From Promethearchaeota archaeon (GTDB taxonomy: Archaea > Asgardarchaeota > Lokiarchaeia > Sigyniarchaeales > SOKP01), in contig JAHPZA010000004.1 in the NCBI GenBank assembly GCA_019058445.1, positions 256,001 to 320,000 of the forward strand: a stretch of DNA of 64,000 nucleotides, in the 5' to 3' direction. The notes beneath the pieces were generated by a model, which saw only the letters and a program-made list of their open reading frames with translations, was not told where the DNA came from and made no database searches. Numbering within the stretch: the stretch's first letter is position 1; every line of letters begins with the position of its first letter. Below, one piece after another: positions 5,306-64,000 of the stretch. The position numbers were made by a program, and so were the translations under genes.

Positions 5306-5335
5306 CACAAATAGTAATTTGATGCTTCCAAAAAT

Positions 5336-6999: not shown

Positions 7000-7040
7000 A
7001 ATAGTGATTATTTTAAATAAAATTAAAAAAAAATCCCTTT

Positions 7041-9275: not shown

Positions 9276-9385
9276 GATTTTTAGATCCCAATTTTTTTGC
9301 GTAAGAGTTAAAATCTATTTAAAACAAATGTATATAAATTCTTTTATAATAGATAGGAAATATTAAATATTTTTAATTTTGGATT

Positions 9386-10483: not shown

Positions 10484-10504
10484 TGAAAAAAAATTATTGA
10501 TTTT

Positions 10505-10909: not shown

Positions 10910-11090
10910 TTTACAATCTAATCTTTATCTTTTTTTACTATATAGAAATACTAATAGAAGTTATATTTAAATAATTAGGAAACGTTAAACCGATTATTAT
11001 CTTTTAATAGAGTATACCATTTTAATAGATAGAATTAAGAAAATAGTAAATTAAAAAAGCATCAACTAATAATAGAGAGGTTTATGTATA

Positions 11091-12287
11091 ATGACAATAA
11101 AAGAGGTTGAGCATGTGTTCGTCTATAAGGATAAAAAACTGGCGCATGCGTGCAATCAGGTCAGTCTTGTCGCACTTCGAAATGGGGAAGTCTTCATGGG
11201 ATTCAACGAAGAGAGATGGCCTATCCATGCCGACAGCGGACAATCATGTTTTATCAAATCTACAGACGGGGGAAAGAGTTGGGATCCCTCCACTAAGCAG
11301 GTTATTTGGCCCTACACCAAATTCATGGGTAATTGGGATTGTGCTTTTGCCCAAATATCAAATGGAACGATTTTAATGCACACAAGAGTGTGTAATTTTC
11401 TTGCACCCAGAGGGATCGCTTCAGAAGGTGACCAGATGCTAGGAATGCCTCCCCCAGGATTTCCAGAGCGCCTCAAAAGACAGACAGGGTATGCTATACT
11501 CAAATCCAAGGACGGAGGAAACACTTGGTCTGACCCTATTGAAATCAACACAAGCCCTATCGCCAGCTCATCGTTGAGTGCCTATGCCTGTGGAGGATCG
11601 GGTGCAGGACACATTATTGAGCTTCCTAACAAGGGATTATTAATGCCATTGGCAGGAACGTTATCGATGACAGGGGAATGGTTAGATGGATCCGGAACAG
11701 AATTGGAACGCTGCTTTTTGTTAAGGTCTGATGATGGTGGAAATAATTGGGAATATTGGTCCACTGTTGCTTATGATCCAGCTAGTATTATCAGTTTTGC
11801 AGAGCCTGGCATGGCACGTTTAAGAGATGGTAAACTTGTCTGCTTGATGAGAACAGCTCATAGACCAAAACGGCAAGATAATATGTGGTTCACTTGGTCG
11901 GATGACGATGGGGTTACGTGGAGCCCTCCAAAGAGAACTGCTCTCTGGGGCTACCCAGCAGATGTCATGCAGTTGAAAGATGGAAGAGTCCTAGCGGTCT
12001 ATGGATACAGAAAAACGCCATGGGGTGTGCGTGGCTGCATCTCAGAAGACGGCTTGACATGGGACATTGAAAACGAATTCGTCATTAGAGAAGGAGGAGT
12101 ACCGACGCCAAAGCCAGGCAAAGGTTCCCGTGGTCTTCAAGATATGCTGATCATGAGCCAATACTGGCATATTGGATATCCTAGTGTGACTCAATTGGAA
12201 GATGAAACTGTAATTGTTGGCTATCACGAGTACAGCGACGATGATATGCCCCTCCAATACCTGATGTGCACTCGTTTTAAAGTATAG
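11091..12287 (+). CDS. BNR/Asp-box sialidase-like beta-propeller protein
   Basis: Five Asp-boxes: STDGGKSW, SKDGGNTW, SDDGGNNW, SDDDGVTW, SEDGLTW; GYP motif. Confidence 0.85.
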   Translation: MTIKEVEHVFVYKDKKLAHACNQVSLVALRNGEVFMGFNEERWPIHADSGQSCFIKSTDGGKSWDPSTKQVIWPYTKFMGNWDCAFAQISNGTILMHTRVCNFLAPRGIASEGDQMLGMPPPGFPERLKRQTGYAILKSKDGGNTWSDPIEINTSPIASSSLSAYACGGSGAGHIIELPNKGLLMPLAGTLSMTGEWLDGSGTELERCFLLRSDDGGNNWEYWSTVAYDPASIISFAEPGMARLRDGKLVCLMRTAHRPKRQDNMWFTWSDDDGVTWSPPKRTALWGYPADVMQLKDGRVLAVYGYRKTPWGVRGCISEDGLTWDIENEFVIREGGVPTPKPGKGSRGLQDMLIMSQYWHIGYPSVTQLEDETVIVGYHEYSDDDMPLQYLMCTRFKV

Positions 12288-12511
12288 GCTTGGAGATTTA
12301 AATCTTGAGACAACGTATAACATGAAAATGAAAAAACATTAAAAGTATAAGCTCTGAATTCTGCTCTAGTTTTTCCTTTTTTTATATCTATAAATTTGTT
12401 ATTGATCCACAAATATTTTATTGGTACCATTTTATAATACTAATATTAAAGAAAAAATTAATTCAAAAACACTTCAAAATTTTTTAAAAAAAATATCGGT
12501 GAAATAATAAT

Positions 12512-13060
12512 ATGGCTTTAAGATTATGGAGAAAGGCTATTAAAATGACTCTCCGGGAAAAAAAGATATTTGTAATTTTTACAGGCATATATACAATATT
12601 AATCTTTTTAACAAGTTTTTTTATTGAGACTACCTTAAGTGCGGGAGAGGGATTTTTATCTAATTATTTCATAATGATTTTCTTTATTACAAGCTTAATT
12701 CTCTCTTTACTTTATGCGTGGCTAATTGTCTCGAGAAATAGAAGAATATTTGCCACTTTGAAATGCATTGGTTGGACTAACGGTAATATAAATTCTTTAG
12801 TTACAGGAATTATTATGTTTACAACGATCTCGGGTTTTATTCTTGTAATTGAAGGATTATTTCACTATGCTGCAATTATGGGGTATTTACAGTCTACTGG
12901 TAAAGGATTTGACGCTTATCCCTCAATTTTAATCAGTCTCACTCCAGTTGTTATTACGTTCGCAATGTTTCTATTTGTCCAAATAATTTCGATAATCTTG
13001 GCTAATAGAAAAGTATTAAAAGTAAGACCCGTGATTGCATTAAAACGGGTAGGTCAGTGA
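12512..13060 (+). CDS. FtsX-like ABC permease (4 TM)
   Basis: RRIFATLKCIGWT motif; C-terminal PVIALK; upstream GGTGA SD. Confidence 0.8.
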   Translation: MALRLWRKAIKMTLREKKIFVIFTGIYTILIFLTSFFIETTLSAGEGFLSNYFIMIFFITSLILSLLYAWLIVSRNRRIFATLKCIGWTNGNINSLVTGIIMFTTISGFILVIEGLFHYAAIMGYLQSTGKGFDAYPSILISLTPVVITFAMFLFVQIISIILANRKVLKVRPVIALKRVGQ

Positions 13061-13074
13061 GGTGATGAAAAAAA

Positions 13075-13758
13075 ATGCCAGTAAGTAAAGATGTAATGAT
13101 TGAGTGTATTGATGTAAATAAGGAATACAGGCGTGCTGGGGCTATTATCCGAGCTTTGGTAGATATAAATATTTCTATTAAATCCGGGGATTTTGTTATC
13201 GTTCAAGGTCCGACGGGTTGTGGTAAAAGCACTTTGTTAAATGTTATGTCTGGTTTAGACTTACCAGATTCAGGAAAAATTATATTTGACGGTGAAAATA
13301 TAGCCAGATCCAAAGAGGATAGATTAGCTAAGATTCGTAGACAAAAGGTTGGATTCGTGTTTCAGGATTTTAACCTTGTTAACACGCTAACCGCCATTGA
13401 AAATGTAGAAGCGATGTTATGGCCTACCGTTTTAAGATCAAAAGAAATTGAGAATCGAGCTATTGCTGCATTGCGTGATGTAAACATGCTCGAAAGAAAA
13501 GATCACTTTCCTGTAGAAATGAGTGGTGGGGAAAAACAGCGTGTGGCATTAGCAAGAGCTATTGTAGGAAAACCAAGAGTAGTTTTCGGAGATGAAGTTT
13601 CTGGAAATTTAGATCCTAAATCTGAGAAGGAAGTTATGGAACTCCTAAAGCAAATAAATCAAGATTATGAAACAACGATGATTATCGTAACGCATAGAGA
13701 AACTGTGGCGAAATATGGGGACAATATCATCAAAATGGATAAAGGACGAATTATTTAA
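13075..13758 (+). CDS. ABC transporter ATP-binding protein (LolD/MacB-like)
   Basis: GPTGCGKST, GFVFQDFNL, MSGGEKQRVALARA, DE, VTH. Confidence 0.95.
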   Translation: MPVSKDVMIECIDVNKEYRRAGAIIRALVDINISIKSGDFVIVQGPTGCGKSTLLNVMSGLDLPDSGKIIFDGENIARSKEDRLAKIRRQKVGFVFQDFNLVNTLTAIENVEAMLWPTVLRSKEIENRAIAALRDVNMLERKDHFPVEMSGGEKQRVALARAIVGKPRVVFGDEVSGNLDPKSEKEVMELLKQINQDYETTMIIVTHRETVAKYGDNIIKMDKGRII

Positions 13759-14019
13759 CAAATAACTTTTTTTATTTTATCTTTTTTTATGAAACAAAAT
13801 TCTGAAATAGTATCTTTAATAATTATTTTTTTTAACACTGGGATTCATAATTGAATAAGATTTAGGATGCCGCTCTCTATTTGTATTTTAATATATAATT
13901 AAAGATTGGACTCCTATAATTATAAAAAAAGAAATAAATATAAATAGAAAAACAGTCTTGAAATTATAAATAAAAATAATATAATAATTAAATTTTATAT
14001 ATCAAGGGAGTTAACAACC

Positions 14020-14592
14020 ATGGGATTCAAATTATGGCGATTTATTTGGACGGGAATCGTAGGAATGCTGTTTATGTTACCAACGGCGTATGCAACGTTT
14101 TATGCGTTTGATTTAATTGCTCTTCTTACTGGTGGTTTAATTCAAAATTTTTTCGTTTTAACCAGAACTTTGGGTGGTCCATTAATAGGTTTTTTAATAA
14201 GCGCATTCATTGGAGTTTTTTTAATATGTCTAATTCCAGTTCATTGGGCTCTTCTTAACCAACCTGATAATGTTATGTTAATGCTGGCTTTAGTACTTCC
14301 TTGGATTATTTGTTGTTCACTTATGGCATTATTAACAGCTAGAGATCCTCAAGAGGGAGTATATACAAGTTTCGCTATAGGCCTTGGACTTTTCATAATA
14401 ATGGTAATCATCTATTCTGTTCTAGCAGTATTATTGGCTAGATTTGGAGGAGGAGCGATTCTTGATAGTGCTTCAGTTGGGTTTACTGATTTACCATTTG
14501 TACTAGCAGCTTTTTTGGCAACAATGGAAGGCGCGGGAATTGGGGCTGTATTTGCAGCATTGTTTGGAAGTTTAAAATATGAACCTACGTAA
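14020..14592 (+). CDS. Membrane protein (about 5 TM)
   Basis: Hydrophobic 190-aa ORF. Confidence 0.75.
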   Translation: MGFKLWRFIWTGIVGMLFMLPTAYATFYAFDLIALLTGGLIQNFFVLTRTLGGPLIGFLISAFIGVFLICLIPVHWALLNQPDNVMLMLALVLPWIICCSLMALLTARDPQEGVYTSFAIGLGLFIIMVIIYSVLAVLLARFGGGAILDSASVGFTDLPFVLAAFLATMEGAGIGAVFAALFGSLKYEPT

Positions 14593-14780
14593 AAAATTTT
14601 TTAATATTTCTTTATGTTATTATTTTTTTTATATCATTTCGAAAAAAGTCTGATTTATTTTTCTGTAATAGCCTAAATGGAGTATTAAATTTTTAAGCAT
14701 TGAAAAGAAAGATTTATAATAGAATACAATATAAGTGTATTAAATAACTTTTAATATCAACATTTGGATGATGTATTTAG

Positions 14781-15794
14781 ATGTCTAAACAAATAAAAGG
14801 AATTATAGTTTCACGATTAATTGTAATGATTTCAATCATATTAGTCCCAATAGCAATATTTCTCATCTTCAACTTAGTGGAATTTAGTTTATGGTTTTCA
14901 GATGATCCGGCGTTAAATTTTTGGATTTTAAATGTATTATGTCCGTTAGTATTTAGCGTTTCTTGGTTGTTCTTTTTAATATTATTTGCCAATAGGTTCG
15001 CAGCCACGATTGAGGCTATGGATAAAACAGTGGGAGTTGTACCCTTAAGATTGAGATTTTTTTTCGGACTAAATGCTTTATTCATTTTATTTATTTTTGT
15101 CTTTCCATTAATTACACCAATTGTCTCAATTTTAAGTTTTGCTTCAATGGCGTGGAGATTAACAACCTTTAGAAAAGAAAGCTGGGATGATTCTGAAATC
15201 TCTTTCGGGACTAAATTTCTAATGATTCTTTTCTCAATATTGCCTGTGTTCTGTACCATTGTTATTCTTCCTCAATATATATTACTCTCCATCTTCTTAT
15301 GGGAAAATATCTGGATGCCGTTATTACCAATTATTTTCATTATTTCGGTGTGCTTATGTACGGCATTAGCGATTGGATCATTATTTTATTTAGTGGCAAA
15401 TAAGGGAGTTAGTGAATATGAACAAATTTTCGTTGACACAAGCACTCCAAAATATGTATGGAACATTAGAATTTTAGAGATATTCTTATTCCTGTTTTTC
15501 TTATTCTTAGCATTCGGAAATTTTGCTCTGATTGATTTTTTCTACTATTTAGGATTTGTAATTGTGGCGTTTGTTGCTATTGTTAATTTTATTAATGGGA
15601 AAAGAAGAGATGTAAGTTTTAAGAGCCATTTTCTAGGATATCTCCTTGCAGCTGTATTTATGGGGTCAAATTTTCTTATTTTCAATGCGGACTTAGCATT
15701 AATTATTCAAGAAGTAAGTTTAATCACTTCTGCTATTGTGTTTATCCTTATATTTTTCTATACATTCTTCCGCTTTGACGAATCAGAAATTTAA
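14781..15794 (+). CDS. Polytopic membrane protein
   Basis: 337 aa, mostly TM helices. Confidence 0.75.
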   Translation: MSKQIKGIIVSRLIVMISIILVPIAIFLIFNLVEFSLWFSDDPALNFWILNVLCPLVFSVSWLFFLILFANRFAATIEAMDKTVGVVPLRLRFFFGLNALFILFIFVFPLITPIVSILSFASMAWRLTTFRKESWDDSEISFGTKFLMILFSILPVFCTIVILPQYILLSIFLWENIWMPLLPIIFIISVCLCTALAIGSLFYLVANKGVSEYEQIFVDTSTPKYVWNIRILEIFLFLFFLFLAFGNFALIDFFYYLGFVIVAFVAIVNFINGKRRDVSFKSHFLGYLLAAVFMGSNFLIFNADLALIIQEVSLITSAIVFILIFFYTFFRFDESEI

Positions 15795-16256
15795 AAAAAG
15801 GATTATAGGATTTGGTAAAAAATTACCATTTTTTTTATTAACTCTTATGATTTTAAGTTAAATATTAGAATTAATTTAACAAAAGCTTATAGAATTAGAA
15901 TTTATACACAGATTTAGAATAAAATTCAATTTATTACAAAAATTTTTAAAGATTTCATATCATAGGTTTATTTTTTAGATAATTCTAATCTATCCGAAAA
16001 TCGATACTCATCGCTTCTTCTGATGCTTCTAACAATCCTTATTAACTCTTAATCGTACTCGTATGTATCTTAAAGATTCATTCTAACTTGAATTTTAAAT
16101 TGAATTATAAAGGATTATTGATAAATAAATTACTTTTTTAAAGAAGTTCTATTCCACGCGAAACTAAATTCTTAAAAAGTTGAATTTGAATTATAATTCT
16201 TAGATCTATAATTTTTTTAAAAAAAATTTGAATTAAAAAAAAAAGGACAACTGAAT

Positions 16257-18362
16257 ATGAAATTAATAAATTTCAAAACACTAATGGTATTAGCTTTTCT
16301 CATAACAGCTATGGTAGCTATGCCTGTCATGGTTTTAGGGCAACAAGATGGTGATGACGAAAATTACGACGAGAGTGAACAATACGGTGCGTTTGAAAAC
16401 TTCCATGGAGGTTTTGGAGGTGTTTTTCGTGAAAATATGGGCCCTGGGGGGGATATACTTGGGGTATTATTTGAAATGTTGTTACTTGATGGAGTTGATT
16501 TTAAAGACGACGAGGAGTTAGAGGGAGTTTATGTTTTAAGCGCAGATAAAGAAGAAACATATACTGGAAATTACTCTTTTGCTGATAATAAGGATACTCA
16601 AGAAATCCATTATCTCCCATTTTATAATTCAAGTGGTACTGCGAATCAATATCGAATTGATTCTCTTGATGGTTATGCTTATTGTGTTGTTGACAAAGAA
16701 GGAGGATTTGAGTATAATCTGACTATTGGGGCAGCATTAACTCTAATTATATGGGATTATGATGGTTCCTTTATAGAAGCTGCCGAAAAGGTCCTTGCTT
16801 GGGCGAAAAAATTTCAAGAGGCAGAAGATAAGGATGAAGTGGATGAAGAAATTGTTGCTGAAGGAGTGCAAGTTCTATCTTGGTTATTAATACATATTAA
16901 TGAGATTTTTACAGGAGATGAGTTATTCGTACTAAATCCTATTATATGGCAAACTTTAGATATGAATCCCTGGGATAACTATAATATAAGAAAAAACTGG
17001 TATGATACAGGTATAAATAATGGTATTGAATATGGATTTGGTGATGATATTAATCTTACAGAGACGGAATCAGGGCCTACAGGGCTTCTAGAAGAATGGG
17101 AAGCTGCTGCTAATTTAACAAAAGATAGCTATATGCAATGGCTATTGTCAGATTTTAATACTGATGATCTTGTTGAAACCATTTGGACCCAATTTTCTTT
17201 CGATTTAGCTCAACTATGGGTAAAAGAATTCTACGTTGAACTAGATCTATCAGAATTATCAGACGGGGAGGATGCTGACGTAGATGATATTTTTGAAAGT
17301 GCCGATGTTGAATTTTATTTGTTCACGCACCACTTAGCCGGAGCGTTCTTGTATAATGATGAAGATAACAATAGACAAGTCACAGTTGATTATGATTATG
17401 CTAGAAATGAAACTGGTGATATTATCTATACGAACGGTACTGCTGCAATGGTACCTACGAGTAATGAAGTGACTCACCGCTTAATTTTAGGAACAGTAGG
17501 GAAATTTGATTTCAAGGAACCTGAAGTAGATGAGGACGAAAATACGGTTTCATGGGGTCTACTTTTAGCAGATGTTAACATGTCTGCAGTACCAGTCGGA
17601 GTAGACTTAAATTCATATGTGAATGCGCCAGAGGAGAATCTTGACTACATTTACTTTGGATTAGAATTTGAATCAGAAATGGAGGACCCCAATAAAAAAG
17701 GAGAAATTCAAGCGGAGTCAGATGTAAAATTGGAAACGAGGTTTGCCCCATGGAATGATCCAGATGATCCTTATACAAACCAAGATATTACAGATTTAGA
17801 CATGGCAATTATTTATGTTTCAAGTATTTTGCATTTTGATTTACATATCGAACAGGGAGACGATGATATTGAGCCAGAAGATGATGAAGATTTTACAGAT
17901 CAAGATTACTCATCAAGTTCACACACGTTAAAAGTAGGAGATTACCTTGCGGAAGATAATGATGATAAACTTGACTTTGTGGATATTGCGGGACCTGGAT
18001 ATTATTTAAACAATGGTACCACTCTTGAACGATATGCTGCTAACACTAGTATTATCCCAATTGCCTTATGGGAGGGTGAAGAACATACGAGCGAAACTGA
18101 CGTTGATGATAAAGATGATACTGATAACGATTTTGAAGCAGATGTTGATGCTGTAGCAGAATGGAATATTCTATTATACGCAGTGTGCTATCCAGACTTT
18201 AATGGGACGGGGAATGGTATCTTGCATGATCCTACGTTCTCTGTTTACATGGTTTTTACCCCTGAAGAACCTGGATTCTGGGCGTTAATTTTACTCATAG
18301 CTGGAGTTGGCTTAGCCGGGGTTGCGGCAATTTTAATCAAAAGGAAAAAAGATAAATGGTAA
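16257..18362 (+). CDS. Highly acidic secreted cell-surface glycoprotein with C-terminal membrane anchor
   Basis: N-terminal signal peptide, D/E-rich, many N-x-S/T sequons, terminal TM followed by KRKKDKW. Confidence 0.8.
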   Translation: MKLINFKTLMVLAFLITAMVAMPVMVLGQQDGDDENYDESEQYGAFENFHGGFGGVFRENMGPGGDILGVLFEMLLLDGVDFKDDEELEGVYVLSADKEETYTGNYSFADNKDTQEIHYLPFYNSSGTANQYRIDSLDGYAYCVVDKEGGFEYNLTIGAALTLIIWDYDGSFIEAAEKVLAWAKKFQEAEDKDEVDEEIVAEGVQVLSWLLIHINEIFTGDELFVLNPIIWQTLDMNPWDNYNIRKNWYDTGINNGIEYGFGDDINLTETESGPTGLLEEWEAAANLTKDSYMQWLLSDFNTDDLVETIWTQFSFDLAQLWVKEFYVELDLSELSDGEDADVDDIFESADVEFYLFTHHLAGAFLYNDEDNNRQVTVDYDYARNETGDIIYTNGTAAMVPTSNEVTHRLILGTVGKFDFKEPEVDEDENTVSWGLLLADVNMSAVPVGVDLNSYVNAPEENLDYIYFGLEFESEMEDPNKKGEIQAESDVKLETRFAPWNDPDDPYTNQDITDLDMAIIYVSSILHFDLHIEQGDDDIEPEDDEDFTDQDYSSSSHTLKVGDYLAEDNDDKLDFVDIAGPGYYLNNGTTLERYAANTSIIPIALWEGEEHTSETDVDDKDDTDNDFEADVDAVAEWNILLYAVCYPDFNGTGNGILHDPTFSVYMVFTPEEPGFWALILLIAGVGLAGVAAILIKRKKDKW

Positions 18363-56067: not shown

Positions 56068-56628
56068 TTACTCAATTTTAAAATCTACTCCATATTGGCT
56101 TAAGATACGTTGGATAAGTCTTAAAAAAGCTTTATCCACATTTTCGCCATTTAAAGCACTTGTCTCTAAAAAATCAATTGCATTGATTTTATTTGCCAAT
56201 CTTTCACCTTCTTCATATTTTACTACTCTATTTTCTTTTAAATCTATTTTATTTCCTAATAAGAGGAAATCACATTTTTTTTTGATATTATTTAGAAGAT
56301 CCTTAAGCCATTTTGATTCAATATTTATAAACGTATCGTGTCTTGTAATATCATATACAAATAACACTCCAGAACACCCCTCATAATATGCTTGTCGACA
56401 ATTTTCATACTTTTCTTGTCCCGCGATATCCCAAAAGATCAAACGAATTAAAGATCCAATCTGTTCAATTTCAATATCTTTCGATATAATATTTACTCCA
56501 AGCGTTGGTCGATAGTCTTCTAAAAAGGTATGTTCAATATATTGATTAATTAATGAAGTTTTTCCTACTGCCATGTCCCCTAAAACTAATATCTTAAATG
56601 TCCATTGCTTTATTTGACCGTTCGCCAT
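56068..56628 (-). CDS. Rab-like small GTPase
   Basis: GDMAVGKT, WDIAGQ, NKID, TSAL. Confidence 0.95.
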   Translation of the reverse strand: MANGQIKQWTFKILVLGDMAVGKTSLINQYIEHTFLEDYRPTLGVNIISKDIEIEQIGSLIRLIFWDIAGQEKYENCRQAYYEGCSGVLFVYDITRHDTFINIESKWLKDLLNNIKKKCDFLLLGNKIDLKENRVVKYEEGERLANKINAIDFLETSALNGENVDKAFLRLIQRILSQYGVDFKIE

Positions 56629-57275: not shown

Positions 57276-57815
57276 TTAATCATTTAATATAATTTGGTTA
57301 ATTAATTTTTGAAAAGCAAATTCAACATTTTCTCCATATTTAGCACTAGTTTCAATAAACTCAATTGCGTTCATCTTATCGGCTAATTGTTTTCCTCTAT
57401 CTTTATCAACATATCTCAAATCTTTCAAATCTTTCTTGTTTCCAATTAAAATGACTTCAGATTCTCTTTTTCCAAATTTTTGAAAGTCATGCACCCATTT
57501 ATTGTAGATATGGTCAAAAGTTGATTCTCGCGTAATATCGTAGACAAATAAGGCTCCAGAACATCCCTGAAAAAACATTTTTCGTGATAAATCATAAATT
57601 TTTTGGCCTGCTATATCCCAAATAATTAATTTGGCAGAAGTATTTGGATTATCCATCTTTATTTCTTTAGCTATGATATTTGCTCCTAATGTTGGTCGAT
57701 AATCTGTTTCAAACGTATGATCGACATATTGATTAATTAAAGATGTTTTTCCAACTGCTGGGTCTCCCAATAAAACAAGCTTTAAAATGTATTCATGTAC
57801 ATTTTCATCTGACAT
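57276..57815 (-). CDS. Rab-like small GTPase
   Basis: GDPAVGKT, WDIAGQ, NKKD, TSAK. Confidence 0.95.
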   Translation of the reverse strand: MSDENVHEYILKLVLLGDPAVGKTSLINQYVDHTFETDYRPTLGANIIAKEIKMDNPNTSAKLIIWDIAGQKIYDLSRKMFFQGCSGALFVYDITRESTFDHIYNKWVHDFQKFGKRESEVILIGNKKDLKDLRYVDKDRGKQLADKMNAIEFIETSAKYGENVEFAFQKLINQIILND

Positions 57816-58009: not shown

Positions 58010-58900
58010 ATGACCAAAAAAATAATGATTTCTGATGTTGAATTAATACTTTCAGAACCTGCCGATGTTGATATGCTATGGGTTGGTAATGAAGATATTA
58101 TCAATGAATTAAAAGCAGCTTGGATGATTGTAGATAAAAATGATCTTCCTTTAAATCCCAGGATTTTAGGTAAGCCTGGTGTTGGAAAAACGACTTTAGC
58201 TTATGCGACCGGTAAAATGTTAAAAAAGCCCGTATATATCTTTCAATGTACTATGGATACCCGCCCTGAAGATTTATTAATAAGTCCTGTAATTTCTTCT
58301 GATAACAAAATAGCTTATGTTGCTAGCTCTTTAGTATCGGCGATGATAGAAGGAGGGGTTTGTTTATTAGATGAGGGAAATCGAATGTCTGAGAAGAGTT
58401 GGGCATCTTTAGCACCATTAATGGATAAAAGACGATATGTTGATTCAATAATAGCCGGTATAAGAATCTATGCTCATAAAGATTTTCGCTTATGTGTAAC
58501 AATGAACAGCGATAGCAGTACTTATGAAATACCGGAGTATATTTCTTCTCGTTTACAACCTAAGATTTATGTCGAATTTCCCAATAGAGCTGATGAAATG
58601 AATATTTTGTCATATAACGTTCCTTTTTCATCAGAAGAGATATTGGAATATTGTGCGGATTTTTTGCAAAATGCTCACGTTCATGATGAATATACTGTAA
58701 GAGATGGCATCAATATCATTAGATATTACATGAAATCAAGAGCCTTGAATGGAAAAGATATCCATAGATTAAATAAAAAAGAATTTAAAAACGCGATTAA
58801 ACATGTTTTAGAAAACTATGCTGTTAAGTACTGTCCTGATGAATATGAAAAATTTATGGACGAAAAAGAAGGCAGAAACCAAGGAGAGAGCTTATTTTAA
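58010..58900 (+). CDS. MoxR/AAA_5-type AAA+ ATPase
   Basis: GKPGVGKT, LLDEGNR, FRLCVTMN, SRL. Confidence 0.88.
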   Translation: MTKKIMISDVELILSEPADVDMLWVGNEDIINELKAAWMIVDKNDLPLNPRILGKPGVGKTTLAYATGKMLKKPVYIFQCTMDTRPEDLLISPVISSDNKIAYVASSLVSAMIEGGVCLLDEGNRMSEKSWASLAPLMDKRRYVDSIIAGIRIYAHKDFRLCVTMNSDSSTYEIPEYISSRLQPKIYVEFPNRADEMNILSYNVPFSSEEILEYCADFLQNAHVHDEYTVRDGINIIRYYMKSRALNGKDIHRLNKKEFKNAIKHVLENYAVKYCPDEYEKFMDEKEGRNQGESLF

Positions 58901-59004: not shown

Positions 59005-60894
59005 ATGGCAAATTTATCCACTAAATCTGTAGCCAAGGTAAAGAGAGTTAGCAAAAAAGAGATACAAAAATTAAAAAAAGAAGGATATATCATTTTTTCT
59101 TCTCATAATCACACTAATTTTTCTGACGGCGTTGATTATCGTGAGGTTATTGATACTCTTGTTAAAATTGGAGTAAATCTAATTGCACTCACTGATCATA
59201 ACAATATGCGAGTAGCGGAATATGCAAAAACCTATATCGAAGATAAATACCCCGACTGTGGTTATTTATGCGCTGAAGAAGTTGATAGTCATTATGGTTG
59301 TGTTCTCGGTTATGGTTTACAAACAGAGATTCTTTTTGAAGGTGAGGAAAAACCCCCTATTAAATCAATTATTGAAGATATCCATGAACAAGGTGGTTTA
59401 GCTGTTGTTGCTCATCCATTCCATCCTTTAGAAGGGATCTTTAGACCTTTTGGGGGATTAAGAATATCAGAAATCACTAAATTGAACTTTGATGGAATCG
59501 AATTTTTTCATGCAGATCTTCCCCCATTCCTCAATAATATGTGTTCTACTCTTGTGAAATTGCGACCACAAATGTTTCTTTTAGGAGGGGATGATGCCCA
59601 TACAATTCATCATATAGGAAGATATTTGAATTTAGTTGGACCAGATATTGATGATGTAAATAATCTTGATGACATTTTAAAGGCTCTAAATAAGCGAAAA
59701 ACAACTGTTCTCGAATTAAGAGGATGGGTTACTCGACCTTTTCAGACGTTGCCAGGGTTTAAAGATATTTTTATTAACAAGGGATTAAAACGAATTAATG
59801 CTTTTGCGGGAATTTATGGTCTTTTTAAAGGTATACATTTTCAGCATGAATCAATGGGGTGGATTCCAAGAACAGTTCAGGAATTCAAAGCGGAACTTCT
59901 GCAAGTTATCCAGACTATGAACATTAACACTATCCGGCTTGATGCTATGCGAACCGAGAGTAGAGCATATGAATTTGCATCATTGGGAAAGGAACTGGGA
60001 TTAAATGTAATACTTTCTCCTAAATATGTTTATCCTAGGGGGCTATCCAAACCTCAGTTAGATGAATCTTTGACTTATGATGAATTTGAAGATTTTTGCT
60101 TGGAACATGCTCAAAGAGCACAAAAAGCGGGGGTGGATATTTTTTGTGTGGGAAATGAACTCACTCTAGAGCTAAGTGATGATAAATCAGGTCATTTAGA
60201 AAGGCTGCATGATGACTTTTTCTCACAATTTGCCCCTTCTAGTTTAGAGATGATCCCGGGTCTGGGTGCTACTTCCATTGCCAAGCTGGGGAAGCTTAGA
60301 AAAAAGAAGTTTAGACTCACTACATATTTGGAAAATTTATCTAAAAAAGTGAGGAATTATTATAATGGGATGGTTTCCTATGCTGCTGGCTCATGGGAAA
60401 TAAGAGACGTCCCTTGGAAGCATTTTGATCTTATATGTTGCAATCTATTTTACAGCGATTTATTTTTAAAGTACGTTGAGGTTTTACCAGGTCTGAAGAT
60501 TATAATTCCAAAAGGTAGCCCGTCCGTACGAGCCTCTCACTTATTTCGTCAAAACATACAATATCTCAAAACCTTTAAAAAACCAGTCATTATTTCGGAA
60601 TTGGGTTTTCAGACAGTCACTGATGCGATACAAGTTGGTCCAATACCCATTCACCATCATAAGAATTTCGAACAATTCAAATACGATGAAAATGCACAAT
60701 CAAAAGCTTTTTCAGAAGTCTTTAATTTGTTGGAAAAGGATATCTTTGTTAATGGAGTGATCATTCATAAATGGAGAGATCTAAAAGAAGAGGGTTTCGG
60801 TTTAATACACGCTAATGGTATCTATAAACCAGCATGCAAAAATATATCAGATTTTTTTAAAACGTGGACTATCTCATATTCCAATAATAAATAA
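59005..60894 (+). CDS. PHP metallophosphoesterase fused to a TIM-barrel glycoside hydrolase-like domain
   Basis: HNHT.FSDG, TDHN, AHP, DDAH; then VGNE and ISELG clan-A-like glutamates. Confidence 0.75.
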   Translation: MANLSTKSVAKVKRVSKKEIQKLKKEGYIIFSSHNHTNFSDGVDYREVIDTLVKIGVNLIALTDHNNMRVAEYAKTYIEDKYPDCGYLCAEEVDSHYGCVLGYGLQTEILFEGEEKPPIKSIIEDIHEQGGLAVVAHPFHPLEGIFRPFGGLRISEITKLNFDGIEFFHADLPPFLNNMCSTLVKLRPQMFLLGGDDAHTIHHIGRYLNLVGPDIDDVNNLDDILKALNKRKTTVLELRGWVTRPFQTLPGFKDIFINKGLKRINAFAGIYGLFKGIHFQHESMGWIPRTVQEFKAELLQVIQTMNINTIRLDAMRTESRAYEFASLGKELGLNVILSPKYVYPRGLSKPQLDESLTYDEFEDFCLEHAQRAQKAGVDIFCVGNELTLELSDDKSGHLERLHDDFFSQFAPSSLEMIPGLGATSIAKLGKLRKKKFRLTTYLENLSKKVRNYYNGMVSYAAGSWEIRDVPWKHFDLICCNLFYSDLFLKYVEVLPGLKIIIPKGSPSVRASHLFRQNIQYLKTFKKPVIISELGFQTVTDAIQVGPIPIHHHKNFEQFKYDENAQSKAFSEVFNLLEKDIFVNGVIIHKWRDLKEEGFGLIHANGIYKPACKNISDFFKTWTISYSNNK

Positions 60895-60919: not shown

Positions 60920-62338
60920 TTATTTGTCCAAAAGTCCAAATTTTTTGAGTCCTTGCCTCATATCGGGTTGAAACGGTCCTGGAGTCCCCTCTATAAACGC
61001 TTCAATAATATCTTGATTATTGACTTCGTGTGACTCTCTTTTTTTCGCTTTTTCTTCCGCGAGTGATGTTATTGCCATTCTTGCCATTGATTGAAATTGA
61101 GGGGGAGATAATTTGATTAATTCATTGAAGATTTTTTCAGTTTCAGGATCCCATATCAGCTCTGATTTTCTCTCTTTCTTGGTTTTCGTTGAATCTACTC
61201 CAAATTCACGGCTTGTCACAATATCATTTAGATAATCCTTTAAAGATTCAACATATCGGGTAGATTCTTCTTCATCAAGGAATACTGCCTTTTTTGCCCA
61301 ATCCTCGCAATAGGTACATTCACCGCACATAGCCACACAATTTTGTTTTTTAAAGAAATCTATAAATCCGTCAAGTTTCGTATTGTCTATAATTAGTTTA
61401 GATTTAGATTCTTTTCCTAGGGTTTCACTTATTTTTGCATTAGGATCCTTTTGTTCCAGACCTCCGAATGACATCGAAAATCCTTGAATAATATCCACAA
61501 GATTTCCATGATATTCACGGGAAGCAAATGCTTTTACTGCTCTGACAATCCATTCAGTTGACATGCGTCGCCCTGCGATTTTAAAATCATCAATTCCAAT
61601 CGCTTCATAGTGGGAAAGGTCTTCAGGTCGAATCCATCGTGCTTTTATAACTTCCGTTGGATCAGAAAATTTAATAATACTACAATTTAAAATGCATGTA
61701 TCGATATAATTACGCTCGAATTGTTGATGGGTCTGAGAGGCATGTCCAAGTATATTATAATGATAATATCTAAATGGACATTGATAAAGACACCCATCAG
61801 TTAAAAGTAACACGATTTTGCAATTAGTTGCTTCCTTGATTTTTTCTAAAGTCTGGAAATCTCGGTTTATCATTACATCAGGAGTTATCTCATCCGCGCC
61901 TAGCATTTCATATAATTTTGCCCGATTCACACTATTAATATGGGCAATAGTAGATACACGAATTTTTAGTTTAGGAAATTGTTCCTTAATAAGCTGTATT
62001 AGAAAAGGAATAGTAACAATTACATTATCAGTTCCTATATCACTAATCCATTGAATGTATTTAAGCAGTTCTTTATGATATTGCGAATTATATTCCATAT
62101 TATTCATGCAAGGGGCATTCAATAAATAAGAAAATTCCATTTTATTCTCATGAACCTTTTTGATGTACTCAGCAATTTGCTCTTCTTGTATTGTTTTTAA
62201 TAAGAATGAGGGACGACCTCCTCCGACAAGTGTGTGATCAGCAACCCCATACAAACTAGCAACCGGATATTTTGCCAGTTCTTCTATAAGGTTAAAATCC
62301 CAATTCGTTGCTACATGAAATTGAATTTTTTTCACCAT
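60920..62338 (-). CDS. Peptidase U32-family Fe-S protein with C-terminal PCP_red/DUF2621-like domain
   Basis: GGGR, YLLNAPC, VSTIAHI, INRDF, GCLYQC...CILNC, WIRPEDL, FKIAGR; extra CVAMCGECTYC. Confidence 0.88.
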   Translation of the reverse strand: MVKKIQFHVATNWDFNLIEELAKYPVASLYGVADHTLVGGGRPSFLLKTIQEEQIAEYIKKVHENKMEFSYLLNAPCMNNMEYNSQYHKELLKYIQWISDIGTDNVIVTIPFLIQLIKEQFPKLKIRVSTIAHINSVNRAKLYEMLGADEITPDVMINRDFQTLEKIKEATNCKIVLLLTDGCLYQCPFRYYHYNILGHASQTHQQFERNYIDTCILNCSIIKFSDPTEVIKARWIRPEDLSHYEAIGIDDFKIAGRRMSTEWIVRAVKAFASREYHGNLVDIIQGFSMSFGGLEQKDPNAKISETLGKESKSKLIIDNTKLDGFIDFFKKQNCVAMCGECTYCEDWAKKAVFLDEEESTRYVESLKDYLNDIVTSREFGVDSTKTKKERKSELIWDPETEKIFNELIKLSPPQFQSMARMAITSLAEEKAKKRESHEVNNQDIIEAFIEGTPGPFQPDMRQGLKKFGLLDK

Positions 62339-62371
62339 TTTATATGTTTAAAATATTTCTCAATTTTATTA

Positions 62372-62758
62372 CTACTTAACTGCTTTAGCATGGGCTTTTG
62401 CATTAAGTGGTAATAACGGAGCGCATGCCATGAGTTTAGTGACGTCCCCTTCTACAACATATGTTCCGGACATTGTTGCTTGAATTGGATCAGACTCACC
62501 TGAATTTACTTTTTTAATTGTCTCAAAATCCGTTTTGTGGATTACCTTTGGAGCATCTGGTCCTTTATATTCACCCATTCCCCAATTCATCTTGTCATTT
62601 TCAATATATTGCCAATAATTCATCTCTGGCTTGTCAGTTATGATATATTGAAAAATTAACGGAGCTATCGGCTCTAATAACTGCGTTAAATCAGGTAACT
62701 CATTATAAGCTTTCATGAAGCGTGTTAAATACGCTTTCCATTCTTCATTTTCATCCAT
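62372..62758 (-). CDS. SCP2 sterol/lipid-binding domain protein
   Basis: TDFETIKKVNSGESDPIQATMSGTYVVEGD SCP2 signature. Confidence 0.85.
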   Translation of the reverse strand: MDENEEWKAYLTRFMKAYNELPDLTQLLEPIAPLIFQYIITDKPEMNYWQYIENDKMNWGMGEYKGPDAPKVIHKTDFETIKKVNSGESDPIQATMSGTYVVEGDVTKLMACAPLLPLNAKAHAKAVK

Positions 62759-62858
62759 TTTTATTCAATCTTTTTAGTTTTTTAATTTTTTCGAATTTTT
62801 TTTAAAATTTAATCAAATTTGATATTTCTTTAACCTTCAGGGATAAAATTCCTTACTA

Positions 62859-64000
62859 TCATTTATAAGAATCAATTCCCGCTTTAGCACCCATAAACAA
62901 GAAATCTACCATAGTCCCATTATAGTCATTTTCGATTTTATAATAGAGACCGTTGGGCGTGAAAGTAATGCCATAGATAAACTTTCTCATTTCACTCTGG
63001 AATGGGGATTCTTCAACATATTTTTTTATGAGGGGATGAAAGTGCGTCGGAACTTGTTTTGAATCATGACATGCTATACCAAAACATAGGCGCTCAATTC
63101 TAGACGAATCCCAGCTAAAAGTATAATTAAGATGGGCAGCTTGACAACATCTTTCCATTATTTCTTCAGATGCAATCTCAAAACCTATGTCTTTCACGAG
63201 CGCTTTGCATTTCTCAGGTGTCGCTGTGGAAGGATCTCTTAGCATAAAATAGATATTTGTTGTCTCATGTAAAAAATCAAAGGCAAAAACAGCAAAAACA
63301 AATAATTTATGTTTTTTGAAGTATTCTTCATAGGTTTTCATGCTTTGTGGAATATATTTCATTGAAAAAATGGAATCAATAGGACCGGGGACGATAAACG
63401 GCCAGATCTTTGATAATCCATTCCTTGCATCCAAATCAACACCATAACCCAAAATATCAAACGTATCAAATACTTCTAATATCATTTTGTGAATAGCGTG
63501 CCCATTTTTTTCGATTAACCCTTCATTTATAGCAACTGTATATGGATCTGGATCATGGACTATCATCATTTCCACATATCTGACAGAGACATCCCTATTT
63601 TCAACTGGCTTAGTAGTAGTTCTAATTGATACTGGAGAACCTGAGAAAAATTTCTTATAGGCATTGAGTCCCTTCCAAATAGCATCTTCATTACATTTTA
63701 CTCCTGTAAGTACCCCAAGCTTTAAAATATCTTTTACCATTTGATTTAGATCATTATTACATTTAAAATCAGATTTGATTTTGGGTAAATATAGTTCATA
63801 TTCGACACCTAAAGCTAATAAATCTTCTATCATAGTTGGTTGAAAAGCGGGGGGTGTCACTTCAAACAAAGCGATTATAAGATCTATTTCTGCGACATTT
63901 TTCCCATTTCTTTCTATACATTTCTTTTCTGCGTTCTCAAAGAGCATAGGTTTTATGACAGGTCTTACCATTTCTGGAATTTTTAAAACTAAGTTATTAT
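62859..64000 (-). CDS. ABBA aromatic prenyltransferase (NphB/CloQ-like) with N-terminal PCP_red/DUF2621-like domain; 5' end beyond window
   Basis: YGVDLD..GLSKIW, FDF...TNIYF, YTFSWDS.RIERLCF, IYGITFTP..YYKIE.DY; frame open to base 64000. Confidence 0.82.
   Translation of the reverse strand, partial: NNLVLKIPEMVRPVIKPMLFENAEKKCIERNGKNVAEIDLIIALFEVTPPAFQPTMIEDLLALGVEYELYLPKIKSDFKCNNDLNQMVKDILKLGVLTGVKCNEDAIWKGLNAYKKFFSGSPVSIRTTTKPVENRDVSVRYVEMMIVHDPDPYTVAINEGLIEKNGHAIHKMILEVFDTFDILGYGVDLDARNGLSKIWPFIVPGPIDSIFSMKYIPQSMKTYEEYFKKHKLFVFAVFAFDFLHETTNIYFMLRDPSTATPEKCKALVKDIGFEIASEEIMERCCQAAHLNYTFSWDSSRIERLCFGIACHDSKQVPTHFHPLIKKYVEESPFQSEMRKFIYGITFTPNGLYYKIENDYNGTMVDFLFMGAKAGIDSYK

What the first reader, a model, noticed from the sequence alone, without database searches (positions are those of the whole stretch)
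60920..64000. ABBA prenyltransferase + SCP2 + U32 Fe-S operon: candidate anaerobic pathway for a prenylated, hydroxylated aromatic (quinone-like) in an Asgard archaeon
Seen: three co-oriented genes separated by 100 and 33 bp. They encode an NphB/CloQ-type soluble prenyltransferase (YTFSWDSSRIERLCF, IYGITFTPNGLYYKIENDY), an SCP2 protein, and a Cys-rich U32 protein. Established: U32 proteins (UbiU/UbiV, TrhP, RlhA) are Fe-S enzymes for prephenate-dependent, O2-independent hydroxylation; in anaerobic ubiquinone synthesis UbiU/V work with the SCP2 protein UbiT. ABBA prenyltransferases (NphB, CloQ, EpzP) prenylate naphthols, 4-hydroxyphenylpyruvate or dihydrophenazines and are known mainly from actinomycetes and fungi. 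Inference: a UbiUVT-like module in which a soluble ABBA enzyme replaces membrane-bound UbiA, making a lipophilic electron carrier or secondary metabolite. I know of no description of this combination.
Basis: partly seen in the sequence, partly recalled or inferred. Interest (0 to 1): 0.9.

Follow-up and report, generated by a model that had tools for sequence, protein, structure and literature searches.

The report
Asgard oxygen-free prenyl-lipid tailoring operon
The three genes are real and work together, but they are the tail of a larger, undescribed operon found patchily in Asgard archaea, which most likely builds or decorates an unknown greasy, prenylated (probably aromatic) molecule without oxygen and is probably not a classical respiratory quinone pathway.

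Summary
Observation confirmed. Three co-oriented minus-strand genes, with 100-bp and 33-bp gaps, encode an ABBA prenyltransferase (PT), an SCP2 protein and a divergent U32 Fe-S protein.

- **PT:** PF11468 at 170 bits. The model matches AmbP3 at TM 0.92. The true start lies 31 nt past the window end (390 aa, not 370).
- **Larger unit:** the trio is the 3' end of a 7-gene operon: membrane ORF, two rSAM/SPASM, one B12-rSAM, PT, SCP2, U32. Gene order is conserved in 17 loci.
- **SCP2 fusions:** SCP2 is found fused to PT, to U32 and to SPASM enzymes. All three therefore probably act on an SCP2-held lipophilic substrate.
- **Shared module:** PT, U32 and both SPASM enzymes carry the same mobile DUF2621-like module of about 84 aa.
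- **U32 identity:** it is neither UbiU/V nor TrhP (13 and 30 bits). It has ten invariant cysteines.
- **No quinone users found:** the genome (92.6% complete) shows no NuoH, NrfD, NarI/HdrE, cytochrome bd or MqnA. A respiratory quinone is therefore unlikely.
- **Lipid neighbours:** the cluster sits beside a CDP-alcohol transferase, a GT2 and further B12-rSAMs.

The product remains unknown. No literature was found. This scan met the same cluster earlier in other Asgard genomes.

The parts
62859..64000 (-). ABBA (PTase_Orf2) soluble prenyltransferase gene. It is 390 aa long, and its first 10 codons lie beyond the window end (true start at L006:4032, which is window-equivalent position 64031).
   Evidence: PF11468 scores 170 bits. 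PDB sequence hits are AmbP3/FamD1/AmbP1 at 142-144 bits, EpzP at 119 and NphB at 86. The AF2 model has pLDDT 92 and matches AmbP3 5y7c at TM 0.92 and rmsd 2.2 A. About 120 homologues of 388-391 aa are listed.
63780..64000 (-). N-terminal DUF2621-like module of the PT (residues 1-84). The window cuts off its first residues.
   Evidence: An HMM built from the four in-genome copies hits PT residues 1-84 at 139 bits. Pfam DUF2621 gives 17.4 bits, below the cut-off. The model shows four helices before the barrel. In the variant PTs of L020 and L022 the module is C-terminal instead.
62892..63749 (-). PT-barrel catalytic domain (residues ~95-380).
   Evidence: The model has ten beta-strands in alpha-alpha-beta-beta repeats. 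Foldseek returns ABBA prenyltransferases as its first 41 hits. Conserved residues are K208, N259, Y261, R314, Y363, K365, R146, R151, E186, D252, W307 and Y370.
62372..62758 (-). SCP2 lipid-binding protein (128 aa).
   Evidence: PF02036 scores 23.0 bits against a cut-off of 21.3. The ESM Atlas gives 0.93, with 88 of 100 hits in the SCP2 family set. It aligns at 45-80% identity with free SCP2 genes and with SCP2 domains fused to SPASM enzymes, and at 48-76% with SCP2 domains fused to U32-680 and to PT.
60920..62338 (-). Divergent U32-family Fe-S protein (472 aa; the '470-aa type').
   Evidence: PF01136 scores 49.7 bits over profile positions 2-65 only. TrhP scores 30 bits and UbiU 12.7 bits, far below their cut-offs. 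The AF2 model has pLDDT 83, and its only specific PDB match is the U32 protein Mk0906 (5d88; E 4.9e-9; TM 0.72). The subfamily is 52-94% identical across Asgard MAGs.
61682..61792 (-). Invariant cysteines C183, C187, C215 and C219 (with C77 and C173 elsewhere), at the position of the U32 [4Fe-4S] site.
   Evidence: All are invariant in 8 of 8 locus homologues, and all but C173 and C215 in 27 of 27 database homologues. The spacing is CX3C-X27-CX3C, against CX6CX6CX11CX3C in the genome's canonical paralogues and CX6CX15CX3/4C in most U32 families (PMC6747719). pLDDT is low here, as might be expected of a cofactor-binding loop modelled without its cofactor.
61307..61339 (-). Extra invariant motif C334-X3-C338-X2-C341-X2-C344, a candidate second metal or Fe-S site.
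   Evidence: It is invariant in 27 of 27 sequences. An equivalent CX3CX3CX2C motif is present in the 680-aa U32 paralogues. The canonical paralogues L003 and L004 lack it.
60923..61162 (-). C-terminal DUF2621-like module of the U32 (residues 393-472).
   Evidence: The module HMM scores 121 bits. Pfam DUF2621 scores 26.7 bits against a cut-off of 27.7. The module is helical and is joined to the core by a low-confidence linker at residues 385-392.

Best explanation
The three genes are the 3' end of one operon. Its gene order, in L006 coordinates on the minus strand, is: a 260-aa two-TM membrane protein (9154-8372), rSAM/SPASM 1 (8347-6971), rSAM/SPASM 2 (6999-5539), a B12-binding rSAM (5526-4096), the ABBA prenyltransferase, SCP2 and U32.

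Proposed mechanism:
- A lipophilic substrate is held in the SCP2 cavity.
- The soluble PT transfers a prenyl group from a prenyl diphosphate to it. The acceptor is most probably aromatic, as for every characterised ABBA enzyme.
- The U32 Fe-S protein performs an O2-independent oxidation or hydroxylation, by analogy with UbiU/V; prephenate is available in this genome.
- The B12-rSAM methylates, or otherwise functionalises, an unactivated carbon.
- The two SPASM rSAMs carry out further radical chemistry such as C-C bond formation or oxidative decarboxylation.
- The ~84-aa DUF2621-like module shared by PT, U32 and both SPASM enzymes is an adaptor or lid that brings them to the same partner or substrate.
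- The product is more likely a specialised membrane-associated lipid than a respiratory quinone. It may be elaborated further by the adjacent CDP-alcohol transferase, GT2 and B12-rSAM genes.

Shown here: the family identities, the folds, the synteny, the co-occurrence, the fusions and the mobility of the module. Inferred: every chemical step, the nature of the substrate and the role of the module.
For: - **Families and folds:**
- **Gene order:** it is conserved in 17 loci from different genera.
- **Co-occurrence:** 13 of 14 PT-bearing genomes among 61 relatives also have SPASM1, and all 14 have a cluster-type U32.
- **Rosetta-stone fusions:** SCP2-module-PT occurs in three 536-aa clusters holding 4-48 member sequences, and one is verified as a single open frame at L045:1887-3497. 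Module-PT-SCP2 (530 aa), SPASM-SCP2 and U32-module-SCP2 (680 aa) also occur.
- **Precedent:** UbiT (SCP2) acts with UbiU/V, and a UbiT-UbiU fusion is known (PMC6747719).
- **Module:** it sits on four enzymes of three unrelated families and changes position, being N-terminal or C-terminal on PT and internal in U32-680. Only 296 representatives among 1.84 billion proteins carry it.
- **PT residues:** basic and aromatic residues on the barrel strands are conserved.
- **Prephenate supply:** the genome encodes a fused chorismate mutase-prephenate dehydratase.
- **Distant contexts of the toolkit are terpenoid or aromatic-polyketide:** one cluster combines U32+module, a second U32, a B12-rSAM, two SPASM enzymes, a squalene-hopene-cyclase-like gene and a polyprenyl synthase. 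A stand-alone module lies in a type II PKS plus isoprenoid cluster.
Against: - No enzyme that would make an aromatic acceptor is recognisable in the cluster.
- The 470-aa U32 with free SCP2 also occurs in genomes and loci without the PT, so this U32 need not act on the PT's product.
- One PT locus has no adjacent U32; there the U32 lies on another contig.
- The U32 lacks the canonical Cys spacing and most of the Pfam U32 profile, so hydroxylase chemistry rests on analogy alone.
- SCP2 is only just above the Pfam cut-off.
- Distribution is patchy: 19 of 301 phylum genomes, almost all in one family. The pathway is therefore accessory.
- No expression data were found.
Confidence: 0.55

Rival explanations
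1. The operon tailors archaeal membrane ether lipids (archaeol or GDGT) or polyprenyl-phosphate carriers, and no aromatic molecule is involved. SCP2 would extract the lipid. U32, the B12-rSAM and the SPASM enzymes would hydroxylate, methylate and cross-link isoprenoid chains. The PT barrel would have been recruited for a non-canonical acceptor.
For: - A divergent CDP-alcohol phosphatidyltransferase, a GT2 or both lie next to the cluster in 10 of about 17 independent loci, and a Ta0216-type B12-rSAM lies next to it in most loci.
- Six of the genome's ten B12-rSAM hits lie within about 28 kb of the cluster, together with envelope genes.
- B12-rSAMs (Grs, Gmm, Cgm, Ted) and rSAMs (Tes, Gms) are the known anaerobic tailoring enzymes for archaeal lipid tails, and Ted homologues occur in Asgard (bioRxiv 10.1101/2025.10.20.683597).
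- The cluster's B12-rSAM scores best to the 'lipid biosynthesis B12-binding/radical SAM' family TIGR04072, at 279 bits.
- The U32 + SCP2 pair persists without the PT.
- A distant homologous toolkit sits with a squalene-hopene-cyclase-like gene.
Against: - Every characterised ABBA enzyme among the structural matches prenylates an aromatic ring.
- The barrel's aromatic and basic residues are conserved as in those enzymes.
- The scores to TIGR04072, TIGR04190 and Tes are all below their cut-offs.
- The TIGR04190 control test was uninformative.
Confidence: 0.25
2. The product is a quinone-like membrane electron carrier, made by a UbiUVT-like route in which the ABBA enzyme replaces UbiA.
For: - SCP2 + U32 adjacency and fusions mirror UbiT/UbiU/V (PMC6747719).
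- Prenylation, hydroxylation and C-methylation are the steps needed to build a quinone.
- Prephenate and aromatic keto-acids are available.
Against: - No NuoH-type, NrfD-type, NarI/HdrE-type or cytochrome bd protein and no MqnA/D were found in this 92.6%-complete genome, while the controls rang as expected.
- The cluster is present in only about a quarter of genomes in its own family, and not in all species of the genus. That is unusual for a core respiratory cofactor.
- The U32 is far from UbiU/V.
- No O-methyltransferase or decarboxylase is present in the cluster.
Confidence: 0.1
3. The operon is a RiPP-type peptide pathway. SPASM rSAMs, a B12-rSAM C-methyltransferase and a prenyltransferase would modify a ribosomal precursor. 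The shared module would be a leader-recognition domain. The leading 260-aa ORF, with its conserved N-terminus and hypervariable remainder, would be the precursor.
For: - SPASM + B12-rSAM + PT is a typical RiPP enzyme set, and NCBIfam hits to peptide maturases reach 70-110 bits.
- One recognition module shared by several tailoring enzymes fits RiPP logic.
- The leading ORF has a constrained N-terminal ~105 aa and a hypervariable middle.
Against: - SCP2, a lipid-binding fold, is fused to PT, U32 and SPASM enzymes.
- No PqqD-like recognition element, protease or exporter is present in the operon.
- The supposed 'leader' consists of two transmembrane helices.
- U32 enzymes are not known from RiPP pathways.
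Confidence: 0.07
4. The adjacency is coincidental. The U32 is a housekeeping tRNA/rRNA hydroxylase, and SCP2 is unrelated to the PT.
For: TrhP is the best NCBIfam hit of the U32, though at only 30 bits.
Against: - Two canonical U32 paralogues elsewhere in the genome score 193-215 bits to TrhP.
- The cluster's U32 carries the same module as the PT and the SPASM enzymes.
- Synteny holds in many loci.
- The SCP2 fusions argue for a shared function.
Confidence: 0.03

Closest known systems
UbiT / UbiU / UbiV, the O2-independent ubiquinone hydroxylation system of Proteobacteria (PMC6747719)
   Same: An SCP2 lipid-binding protein is encoded next to U32-family Fe-S proteins. SCP2-U32 gene fusions exist in both systems. 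Both act in an anaerobic setting on a prenylated lipophilic substrate. In many sister loci two different U32 proteins (383 and 680 aa) sit side by side, like UbiU and UbiV.
   Different: The sequences are very distant: UbiU 12.7 bits against a cut-off of 440. The Cys spacing is CX3C...CX3C plus an extra CX3CX2CX2C motif. This locus has a single U32. A DUF2621-like module is present. The partners are an ABBA PT and three rSAM enzymes, not UbiA/D/X/E/G. No quinone-using enzymes were found in the genome.
AmbP3/FamD1 and AmbP1 (cyanobacterial hapalindole/ambiguine indole prenyltransferases), then EpzP, NphB/Orf2 and CloQ
   Same: The PT-barrel fold matches (TM 0.92, rmsd 2.2 A, 28-30% identity). 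The enzyme belongs to Pfam PTase_Orf2 and is soluble. Strand residues are conserved.
   Different: The host is archaeal. An extra ~84-aa helical module is fused to the barrel, and in some relatives SCP2 is fused as well. The enzyme sits in a radical-SAM/U32 operon, not a secondary-metabolite cluster with a recognisable aromatic scaffold pathway. Donor and acceptor are unknown.
Radical-SAM tailoring enzymes of archaeal tetraether lipids (Tes, Grs, Gms, Gmm/Cgm, Ted; PMC8941075, PMC11214058, bioRxiv 10.1101/2025.10.20.683597)
   Same: These are O2-independent rSAM and B12-rSAM enzymes that modify lipid substrates in anaerobic archaea. Several B12-rSAM genes flank the cluster.
   Different: No member of this cluster reaches the cut-off of any named lipid rSAM family. 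None of the published systems includes an ABBA PT, a U32 protein, SCP2 or the module.
Pfam DUF2621 (PF11084), with a weak resemblance to PCP_red (PF08369, the C-terminal helical domain of the DPOR BchB subunit)
   Same: The module aligns with DUF2621 profile positions ~56-137 of 139. One of the four in-genome copies passes the gathering score, at 30.3 bits against 27.7.
   Different: The other three copies fall below the cut-off, and the PCP_red match is only 14.8 bits. No function is known for DUF2621, and no paper mentions it. Here it is a mobile appendage on PT, U32 and SPASM enzymes.

Membership tests
ABBA / PTase_Orf2 aromatic prenyltransferases | Sequence membership: Pfam PF11468 above the gathering score over the whole domain. 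| tested here: met
   The score is 170.3 bits against a cut-off of 22, covering profile positions 3-283 of 287.
ABBA / PTase_Orf2 aromatic prenyltransferases | PT-barrel fold: ten antiparallel strands in alpha-alpha-beta-beta repeats. | tested here: met
   The AF2 model has pLDDT 92 and ten strands. Foldseek gives AmbP3 at TM 0.92 and rmsd 2.2 A, and its top 41 hits are all ABBA PTs.
ABBA / PTase_Orf2 aromatic prenyltransferases | Diphosphate-binding Lys/Arg/Asn/Tyr residues on the barrel strands. | tested here: inconclusive
   K208, N259, Y261, R314, Y363 and K365 are conserved in 17-21 of 24 sequences. Their spacing matches what I recall for NphB, but the residue-by-residue equivalence rests on memory and was not tested by superposition.
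ABBA / PTase_Orf2 aromatic prenyltransferases | Prenyl transfer to an aromatic acceptor. | not testable with these tools
   This needs an enzyme assay.
Peptidase_U32 superfamily (Fe-S, O2-independent hydroxylases) | Pfam PF01136 match and the U32 TIM-barrel fold. | tested here: met
   The score is 49.7 bits against a cut-off of 22.4, but only over profile positions 2-65 of 233. The model's only specific PDB match is the U32 protein Mk0906, 5d88, at E 4.9e-9 and TM 0.72.
Peptidase_U32 superfamily (Fe-S, O2-independent hydroxylases) | Four conserved cysteines in a CX6CX15CX3/4C-type motif that binds a [4Fe-4S] cluster (PMC6747719). | tested here: inconclusive
   Invariant cysteines lie at the equivalent region, but with CX3C-X27-CX3C spacing, plus C77 and C173 and an extra CX3CX2CX2C motif. 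Metal binding was not tested.
UbiU / UbiV (anaerobic ubiquinone hydroxylase) | Equivalog-level sequence match (NF047963 / NF047965). | tested here: not met
   UbiU scores 12.7 bits against a cut-off of 440, and UbiV gives no hit. The genome's canonical paralogues score 146-157 bits.
UbiU / UbiV (anaerobic ubiquinone hydroxylase) | Genomic partnership with an SCP2 protein (UbiT). | tested here: met
   SCP2 lies 33 bp upstream. The adjacency is conserved in L029, L030, L035 and L040, and a U32-module-SCP2 fusion exists.
TrhP / RlhA RNA hydroxylases | Equivalog-level match to NF011996 (TrhP). | tested here: not met
   The score is 30.1 bits against a cut-off of 534. The two canonical paralogues score 193-215 bits.
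SCP2 sterol/lipid carrier family | Pfam PF02036 above the gathering score. | tested here: met
   The score is 23.0 bits against 21.3. An independent embedding search gives 0.93, with 88 of 100 hits in the SCP2 family set.
RiPP biosynthetic cluster | A PqqD-like recognition element, a short precursor peptide, and a protease or exporter. | tested here: not met
   The operon has no PqqD, protease or transporter domain. The N-terminal domains of the SPASM enzymes are DUF2621-like.
DUF2621 (PF11084), for the shared module | Pfam gathering score of 27.7 bits. | tested here: inconclusive
   The four copies score 30.3, 26.7, 22.4 and 17.4 bits.

The most novel reading that the evidence does not exclude
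Asgard archaea carry a previously unknown kind of oxygen-independent, carrier-based lipid assembly line. An SCP2 protein, free or fused, presents a greasy intermediate in turn to a soluble ABBA prenyltransferase, to new two-metal-site U32 enzymes and to radical SAM enzymes. A new ~84-aa docking module recruits these enzymes. The product is a new class of prenylated aromatic (phospho/glyco)lipid of the archaeal membrane.
Probability: 0.3. Interest if true: 0.85.

Novelty: new variant of a known kind. Interest (0 to 1): 0.7.

Why it matters
- **ABBA prenyltransferases** have been characterised only from bacteria and fungi. This would place them in archaea, inside a conserved operon.
- **U32 enzymes** are a young family of O2-independent hydroxylases with very few assigned substrates. 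These subfamilies have new cysteine patterns and SCP2 fusions, and would add a lipid-directed branch outside Proteobacteria.
- **A new adaptor domain:** a small module shared by three unrelated enzyme families, together with SCP2 fused to each of them, points to a carrier-and-adaptor organisation of lipid tailoring that has not been described.
- **Asgard biology:** the membrane chemistry of the closest archaeal relatives of eukaryotes is an open question. An unknown, patchily distributed prenyl-lipid pathway offers a concrete target for lipidomics and heterologous expression.

Tried and rejected
- **Complex prediction:** SCP2 (A3) with the module (A1) gave a score of 0.00 and no verdict. This is evidence neither for nor against docking.
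- **Expression:** no RNA holder is listed for the stretch. DNA holders are sediment and soil metagenomes only.
- **Rfam:** no RNA family was found in L006:1-10000.
- **TIGR04190 control test:** meant to tie the flanking B12-rSAM to GDGT ring synthases. It rang below the cut-off in six unrelated controls, so it is uninformative.
- **ESM Atlas on the 260-aa membrane ORF:** no usable hit. Pfam also found nothing.
- **A reading I withdrew:** I first took the 135-159-aa ORFs upstream of the U32 in L035 and L040 for deletion scars of the 680-aa U32. They are free SCP2 genes that resemble that protein's C-terminal SCP2 domain.
- **Multi-repeat hits:** 1000-1900-aa hits of the module profile include the Myroides repeat protein family of P0254, which looks like low-complexity noise; I disregarded them all, having checked only P0254.
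- **Literature searches that returned nothing relevant:** aromatic prenyltransferase + Asgard; ABBA + archaea; U32 + SCP2 + radical SAM + archaea; Asgard + quinone biosynthesis; DUF2621; Lokiarchae + lipidom + quinone.
- **Tetrapyrrole idea:** raised by the AhbD/NirJ/BchE-like best hits and the PCP_red echo, then set aside. Those scores (120-160 bits against cut-offs of 480-650) are generic for SPASM and B12-rSAM enzymes, and SCP2 fusions point to a lipid.

Full report
**1. Observation.**
- One search shows three minus-strand ORFs at window 62859-63971, 62372-62758 and 60920-62338. The gaps between them are 100 and 33 bp, and the first ORF contains both quoted peptide strings.
- Pfam gives three family calls:
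  - PTase_Orf2 at 170 bits, over residues 75-358.
  - SCP2 at 23.0 bits, against a cut-off of 21.3.
  - Peptidase_U32 at 49.7 bits, matching only the first 64 profile positions, plus a sub-threshold DUF2621 match at the C-terminus.
- The window is G000:C4:256001-320000. Reading on into the contig (L006) shows that the PT starts at MEWQPE..., 31 nt past the window end, and is 390 aa long. Nearly all of its ~120 listed homologues have that length.

**2. The real unit is larger.**
- Four more genes lie upstream on the same strand:
  - a B12-binding radical SAM enzyme, best to the 'lipid biosynthesis B12/rSAM' family TIGR04072 at 279 bits and to BzaD at 202 bits, both below their cut-offs;
  - two paralogous rSAM/SPASM enzymes;
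  - a 260-aa ORF with no family.
- Across the divergent intergenic region lie two further B12-rSAMs (HpnR/BchE-like and Ta0216-like), a divergent CDP-alcohol phosphatidyltransferase, a second copy of the 260-aa ORF and a GT2.
- Six of the genome's ten B12-rSAM hits lie within about 28 kb. The island continues with envelope-type genes.

**3. Conservation.**
- I compared the cluster proteins by BLASTP with the ORFs of 17 loci fetched from relatives and from metagenome contigs.
- The recurring order is: membrane ORF, SPASM1, SPASM2, (B12-rSAM), (SCP2), PT.
- After the PT come either SCP2 plus the 470-aa U32, as here, or a 383-aa plus a 680-aa U32-like pair, often followed by the 470-aa type.
- Co-occurrence among 61 relatives:
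  - The PT is present in 14 genomes.
  - 13 of those 14 also have SPASM1.
  - All 14 have a cluster-type U32.
- Across 301 genomes of the phylum that are at least 70% complete, the PT is in 19. Seventeen of these are among the 68 sampled genomes of the window's own family, one is in a sister family, and none is in the 28 other families sampled. Submitter labels on homologues name Loki/Promethearchaeota, Thor-, Hod-, Hermod- and Odinarchaeota, but I could not verify those labels. The cluster is therefore an accessory trait.

**4. Functional linkage of the trio.**
- SCP2 is fused to each enzyme class:

| Fusion | Length |
|---|---|
| SCP2-module-PT (three clusters, 4-48 member sequences; one confirmed as a single frame at L045:1887-3497) | 536 aa |
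| module-PT-SCP2 | 530 aa |
| SPASM-SCP2 | about 500-525 aa |
| U32 core-module-SCP2 | 680 aa |

- This is the same logic as the UbiT-UbiU fusion that supported the UbiTUV assignment (PMC6747719).
- It argues that PT, U32 and the SPASM enzymes all work on an SCP2-bound lipophilic molecule. It also argues against a peptide substrate.

**5. The shared module.**
- PT (N-terminus), both SPASM enzymes (N-terminus) and the U32 (C-terminus) carry the same ~84-aa helical module.
- The module changes position: it is C-terminal in a variant PT (L020, L022) and internal in the 680-aa U32.
- It is DUF2621-like. One of the four copies passes the Pfam cut-off, and there is a weak PCP_red echo.
- A profile search of 1.84 billion representatives finds only 296 carriers. 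They include:
  - many stand-alone proteins of 80-100 aa;
  - divergent module-PT proteins in 'Deltaproteobacteria' MAGs;
  - a stand-alone copy inside a type II polyketide plus isoprenoid cluster;
  - a distant U32+module in a cluster with a second U32, a B12-rSAM, two SPASM enzymes, a squalene-hopene-cyclase-like gene and a polyprenyl synthase.
- I read it as an adaptor or lid domain. Its partner is unknown.

**6. The PT.**
- The model has pLDDT 92 and pTM 0.87. It superposes on AmbP3 at TM 0.92 and rmsd 2.2 A.
- FamD1, AmbP1, EpzP, NphB and CloQ follow in the hit list.
- Basic and aromatic strand residues are conserved.

**7. The U32.**
- The model has pLDDT 83. Its only specific structural match is the archaeal U32 protein Mk0906.
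- The protein scores 30 bits to TrhP and 13 bits to UbiU. The genome's two canonical U32 paralogues score 193-215 and 146-157 bits. The cluster's U32 is therefore a separate lineage, and the canonical paralogues are the better candidates for RNA hydroxylases.
- All ten cysteines are invariant in the 8 locus homologues, and eight of them in all 27 aligned homologues. They form CX3C...CX3C at the usual Fe-S position plus an extra CX3CX2CX2C motif.
- The subfamily is 52-94% identical across Asgard MAGs and is more widespread than the PT.
- In loci without the PT it still sits with a free SCP2, the membrane ORF, the CDP-alcohol transferase, the GT2 and B12-rSAMs.

**8. What the product is not likely to be.**
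- This genome is 92.6% complete. Searches found no NrfD, NuoH-type, NarI/HdrE-type or cytochrome bd protein and no MqnA/D, while the control genomes rang as expected.
- Two UbiA-family genes exist elsewhere in the genome.
- Together with the patchy distribution, this makes a core respiratory quinone unlikely.
- Prephenate is available, because the genome encodes a fused chorismate mutase-prephenate dehydratase. U32-type chemistry and aromatic keto-acid acceptors are therefore feasible.

**9. Reading.**
- Best (0.55): an O2-independent, SCP2-carried tailoring pathway in which the PT prenylates a probably aromatic acceptor, and the U32, B12-rSAM and SPASM enzymes modify it further. The product would be a specialised membrane-associated lipid, possibly elaborated by the neighbouring head-group genes.
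- Main rival (0.25): tailoring of archaeal ether lipids or polyprenyl carriers with no aromatic moiety. The lipid-gene neighbourhood and published rSAM lipid enzymology support it.
- Lesser rivals: a respiratory quinone (0.10), a RiPP pathway (0.07) and coincidental adjacency (0.03).

**10. Novelty.**
- No paper in the searchable library connects ABBA prenyltransferases, U32, SCP2 and rSAM enzymes in archaea.
- Database names are only 'aromatic prenyltransferase', 'U32 family peptidase' or 'hypothetical'.
- This scan has already met the same cluster in at least four other Asgard genomes, with follow-ups reaching a similar general reading.
  - PT-SCP2 fusions in both orders;
  - no recognisable quinone-using enzymes in the genome;
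  - persistence of the U32+SCP2 pair without the PT;
  - the conserved lipid head-group and B12-rSAM neighbourhood;
  - the contexts in which the module occurs outside Asgard archaea.

Noticed in passing
L006:8227-9394 and L006:13864-15033 (beyond the window end; G000:C4 about 324.2-331.0 kb): A 1,174-bp inverted duplication at 83% identity. Each copy carries the 260-aa membrane ORF, its upstream region and about 120-146 bp beyond the ORF's stop. One copy heads the PT operon and the other heads a GT2 + B12-rSAM pair. The ORF's N-terminal ~105 codons are constrained, while the middle is hypervariable (34 synonymous against 83 non-synonymous differences overall).
   Followed up: partly
G000:C4 320-345 kb (L006 and L044): A radical-SAM island: six of the genome's ten B12-binding rSAM hits lie within about 28 kb. 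They are interspersed with a CDP-alcohol transferase, two GT2s, a hexapeptide acyltransferase, a LuxE-type acyl-protein synthetase, an alpha/beta-hydrolase, a polysaccharide deacetylase and a sulfotransferase.
   Followed up: partly
L043 (Logan SRR29054610 contig), 5290-16729: A distant cluster in an unidentified organism. It holds U32+module (34% identical), a second U32, a B12-rSAM, two SPASM rSAMs, a squalene-hopene-cyclase-like gene, a DUF116-polyprenyl synthase fusion, and PNP_UDP_1/IF-2B genes that may salvage 5'-deoxyadenosine. It looks like an anaerobic terpenoid-tailoring cluster.
   Followed up: no
L042 (Logan SRR12133403 contig), 8001-8273: A stand-alone 90-aa copy of the module. 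It sits inside a type II polyketide cluster (KS-alpha, KS-beta, ACP, cyclases, KR) next to phytoene/squalene synthase, lycopene cyclase, polyprenyl synthase and a B12-rSAM.
   Followed up: no
L041 (GCA_016935665.1, 'Deltaproteobacteria bacterium'), 10001-12512: Two tandem module-PT genes (386 and 385 aa; one is 26% identical to the Asgard PT, and both match PF11468). No rSAM or U32 genes lie nearby, and a ceramidase-like gene lies upstream.
   Followed up: no
window 59005-60894 (+): A 629-aa protein convergent with the U32 gene. It combines an N-terminal PHP/CehA-McbA-type metallohydrolase domain with a C-terminal GH113-like glycoside hydrolase region, which is an unusual fusion.
   Followed up: no
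window 56068-56628 (-), 57276-57815 (-), 58010-58900 (+): Two Ras/Rab-like small GTPase ORFs and an AAA_5 (MoxR/dynein-related) ATPase lie just upstream of the cluster region. This fits an Asgard host.
   Followed up: no
L018:17792-20355 (Thor-labelled contig): In this sister locus the cluster is extended by a third SPASM enzyme with the module, a second SCP2, and a FAD_binding_4 + Fer4_8/CCG (GlcD/GlcF-like) oxidoreductase pair.
   Followed up: no
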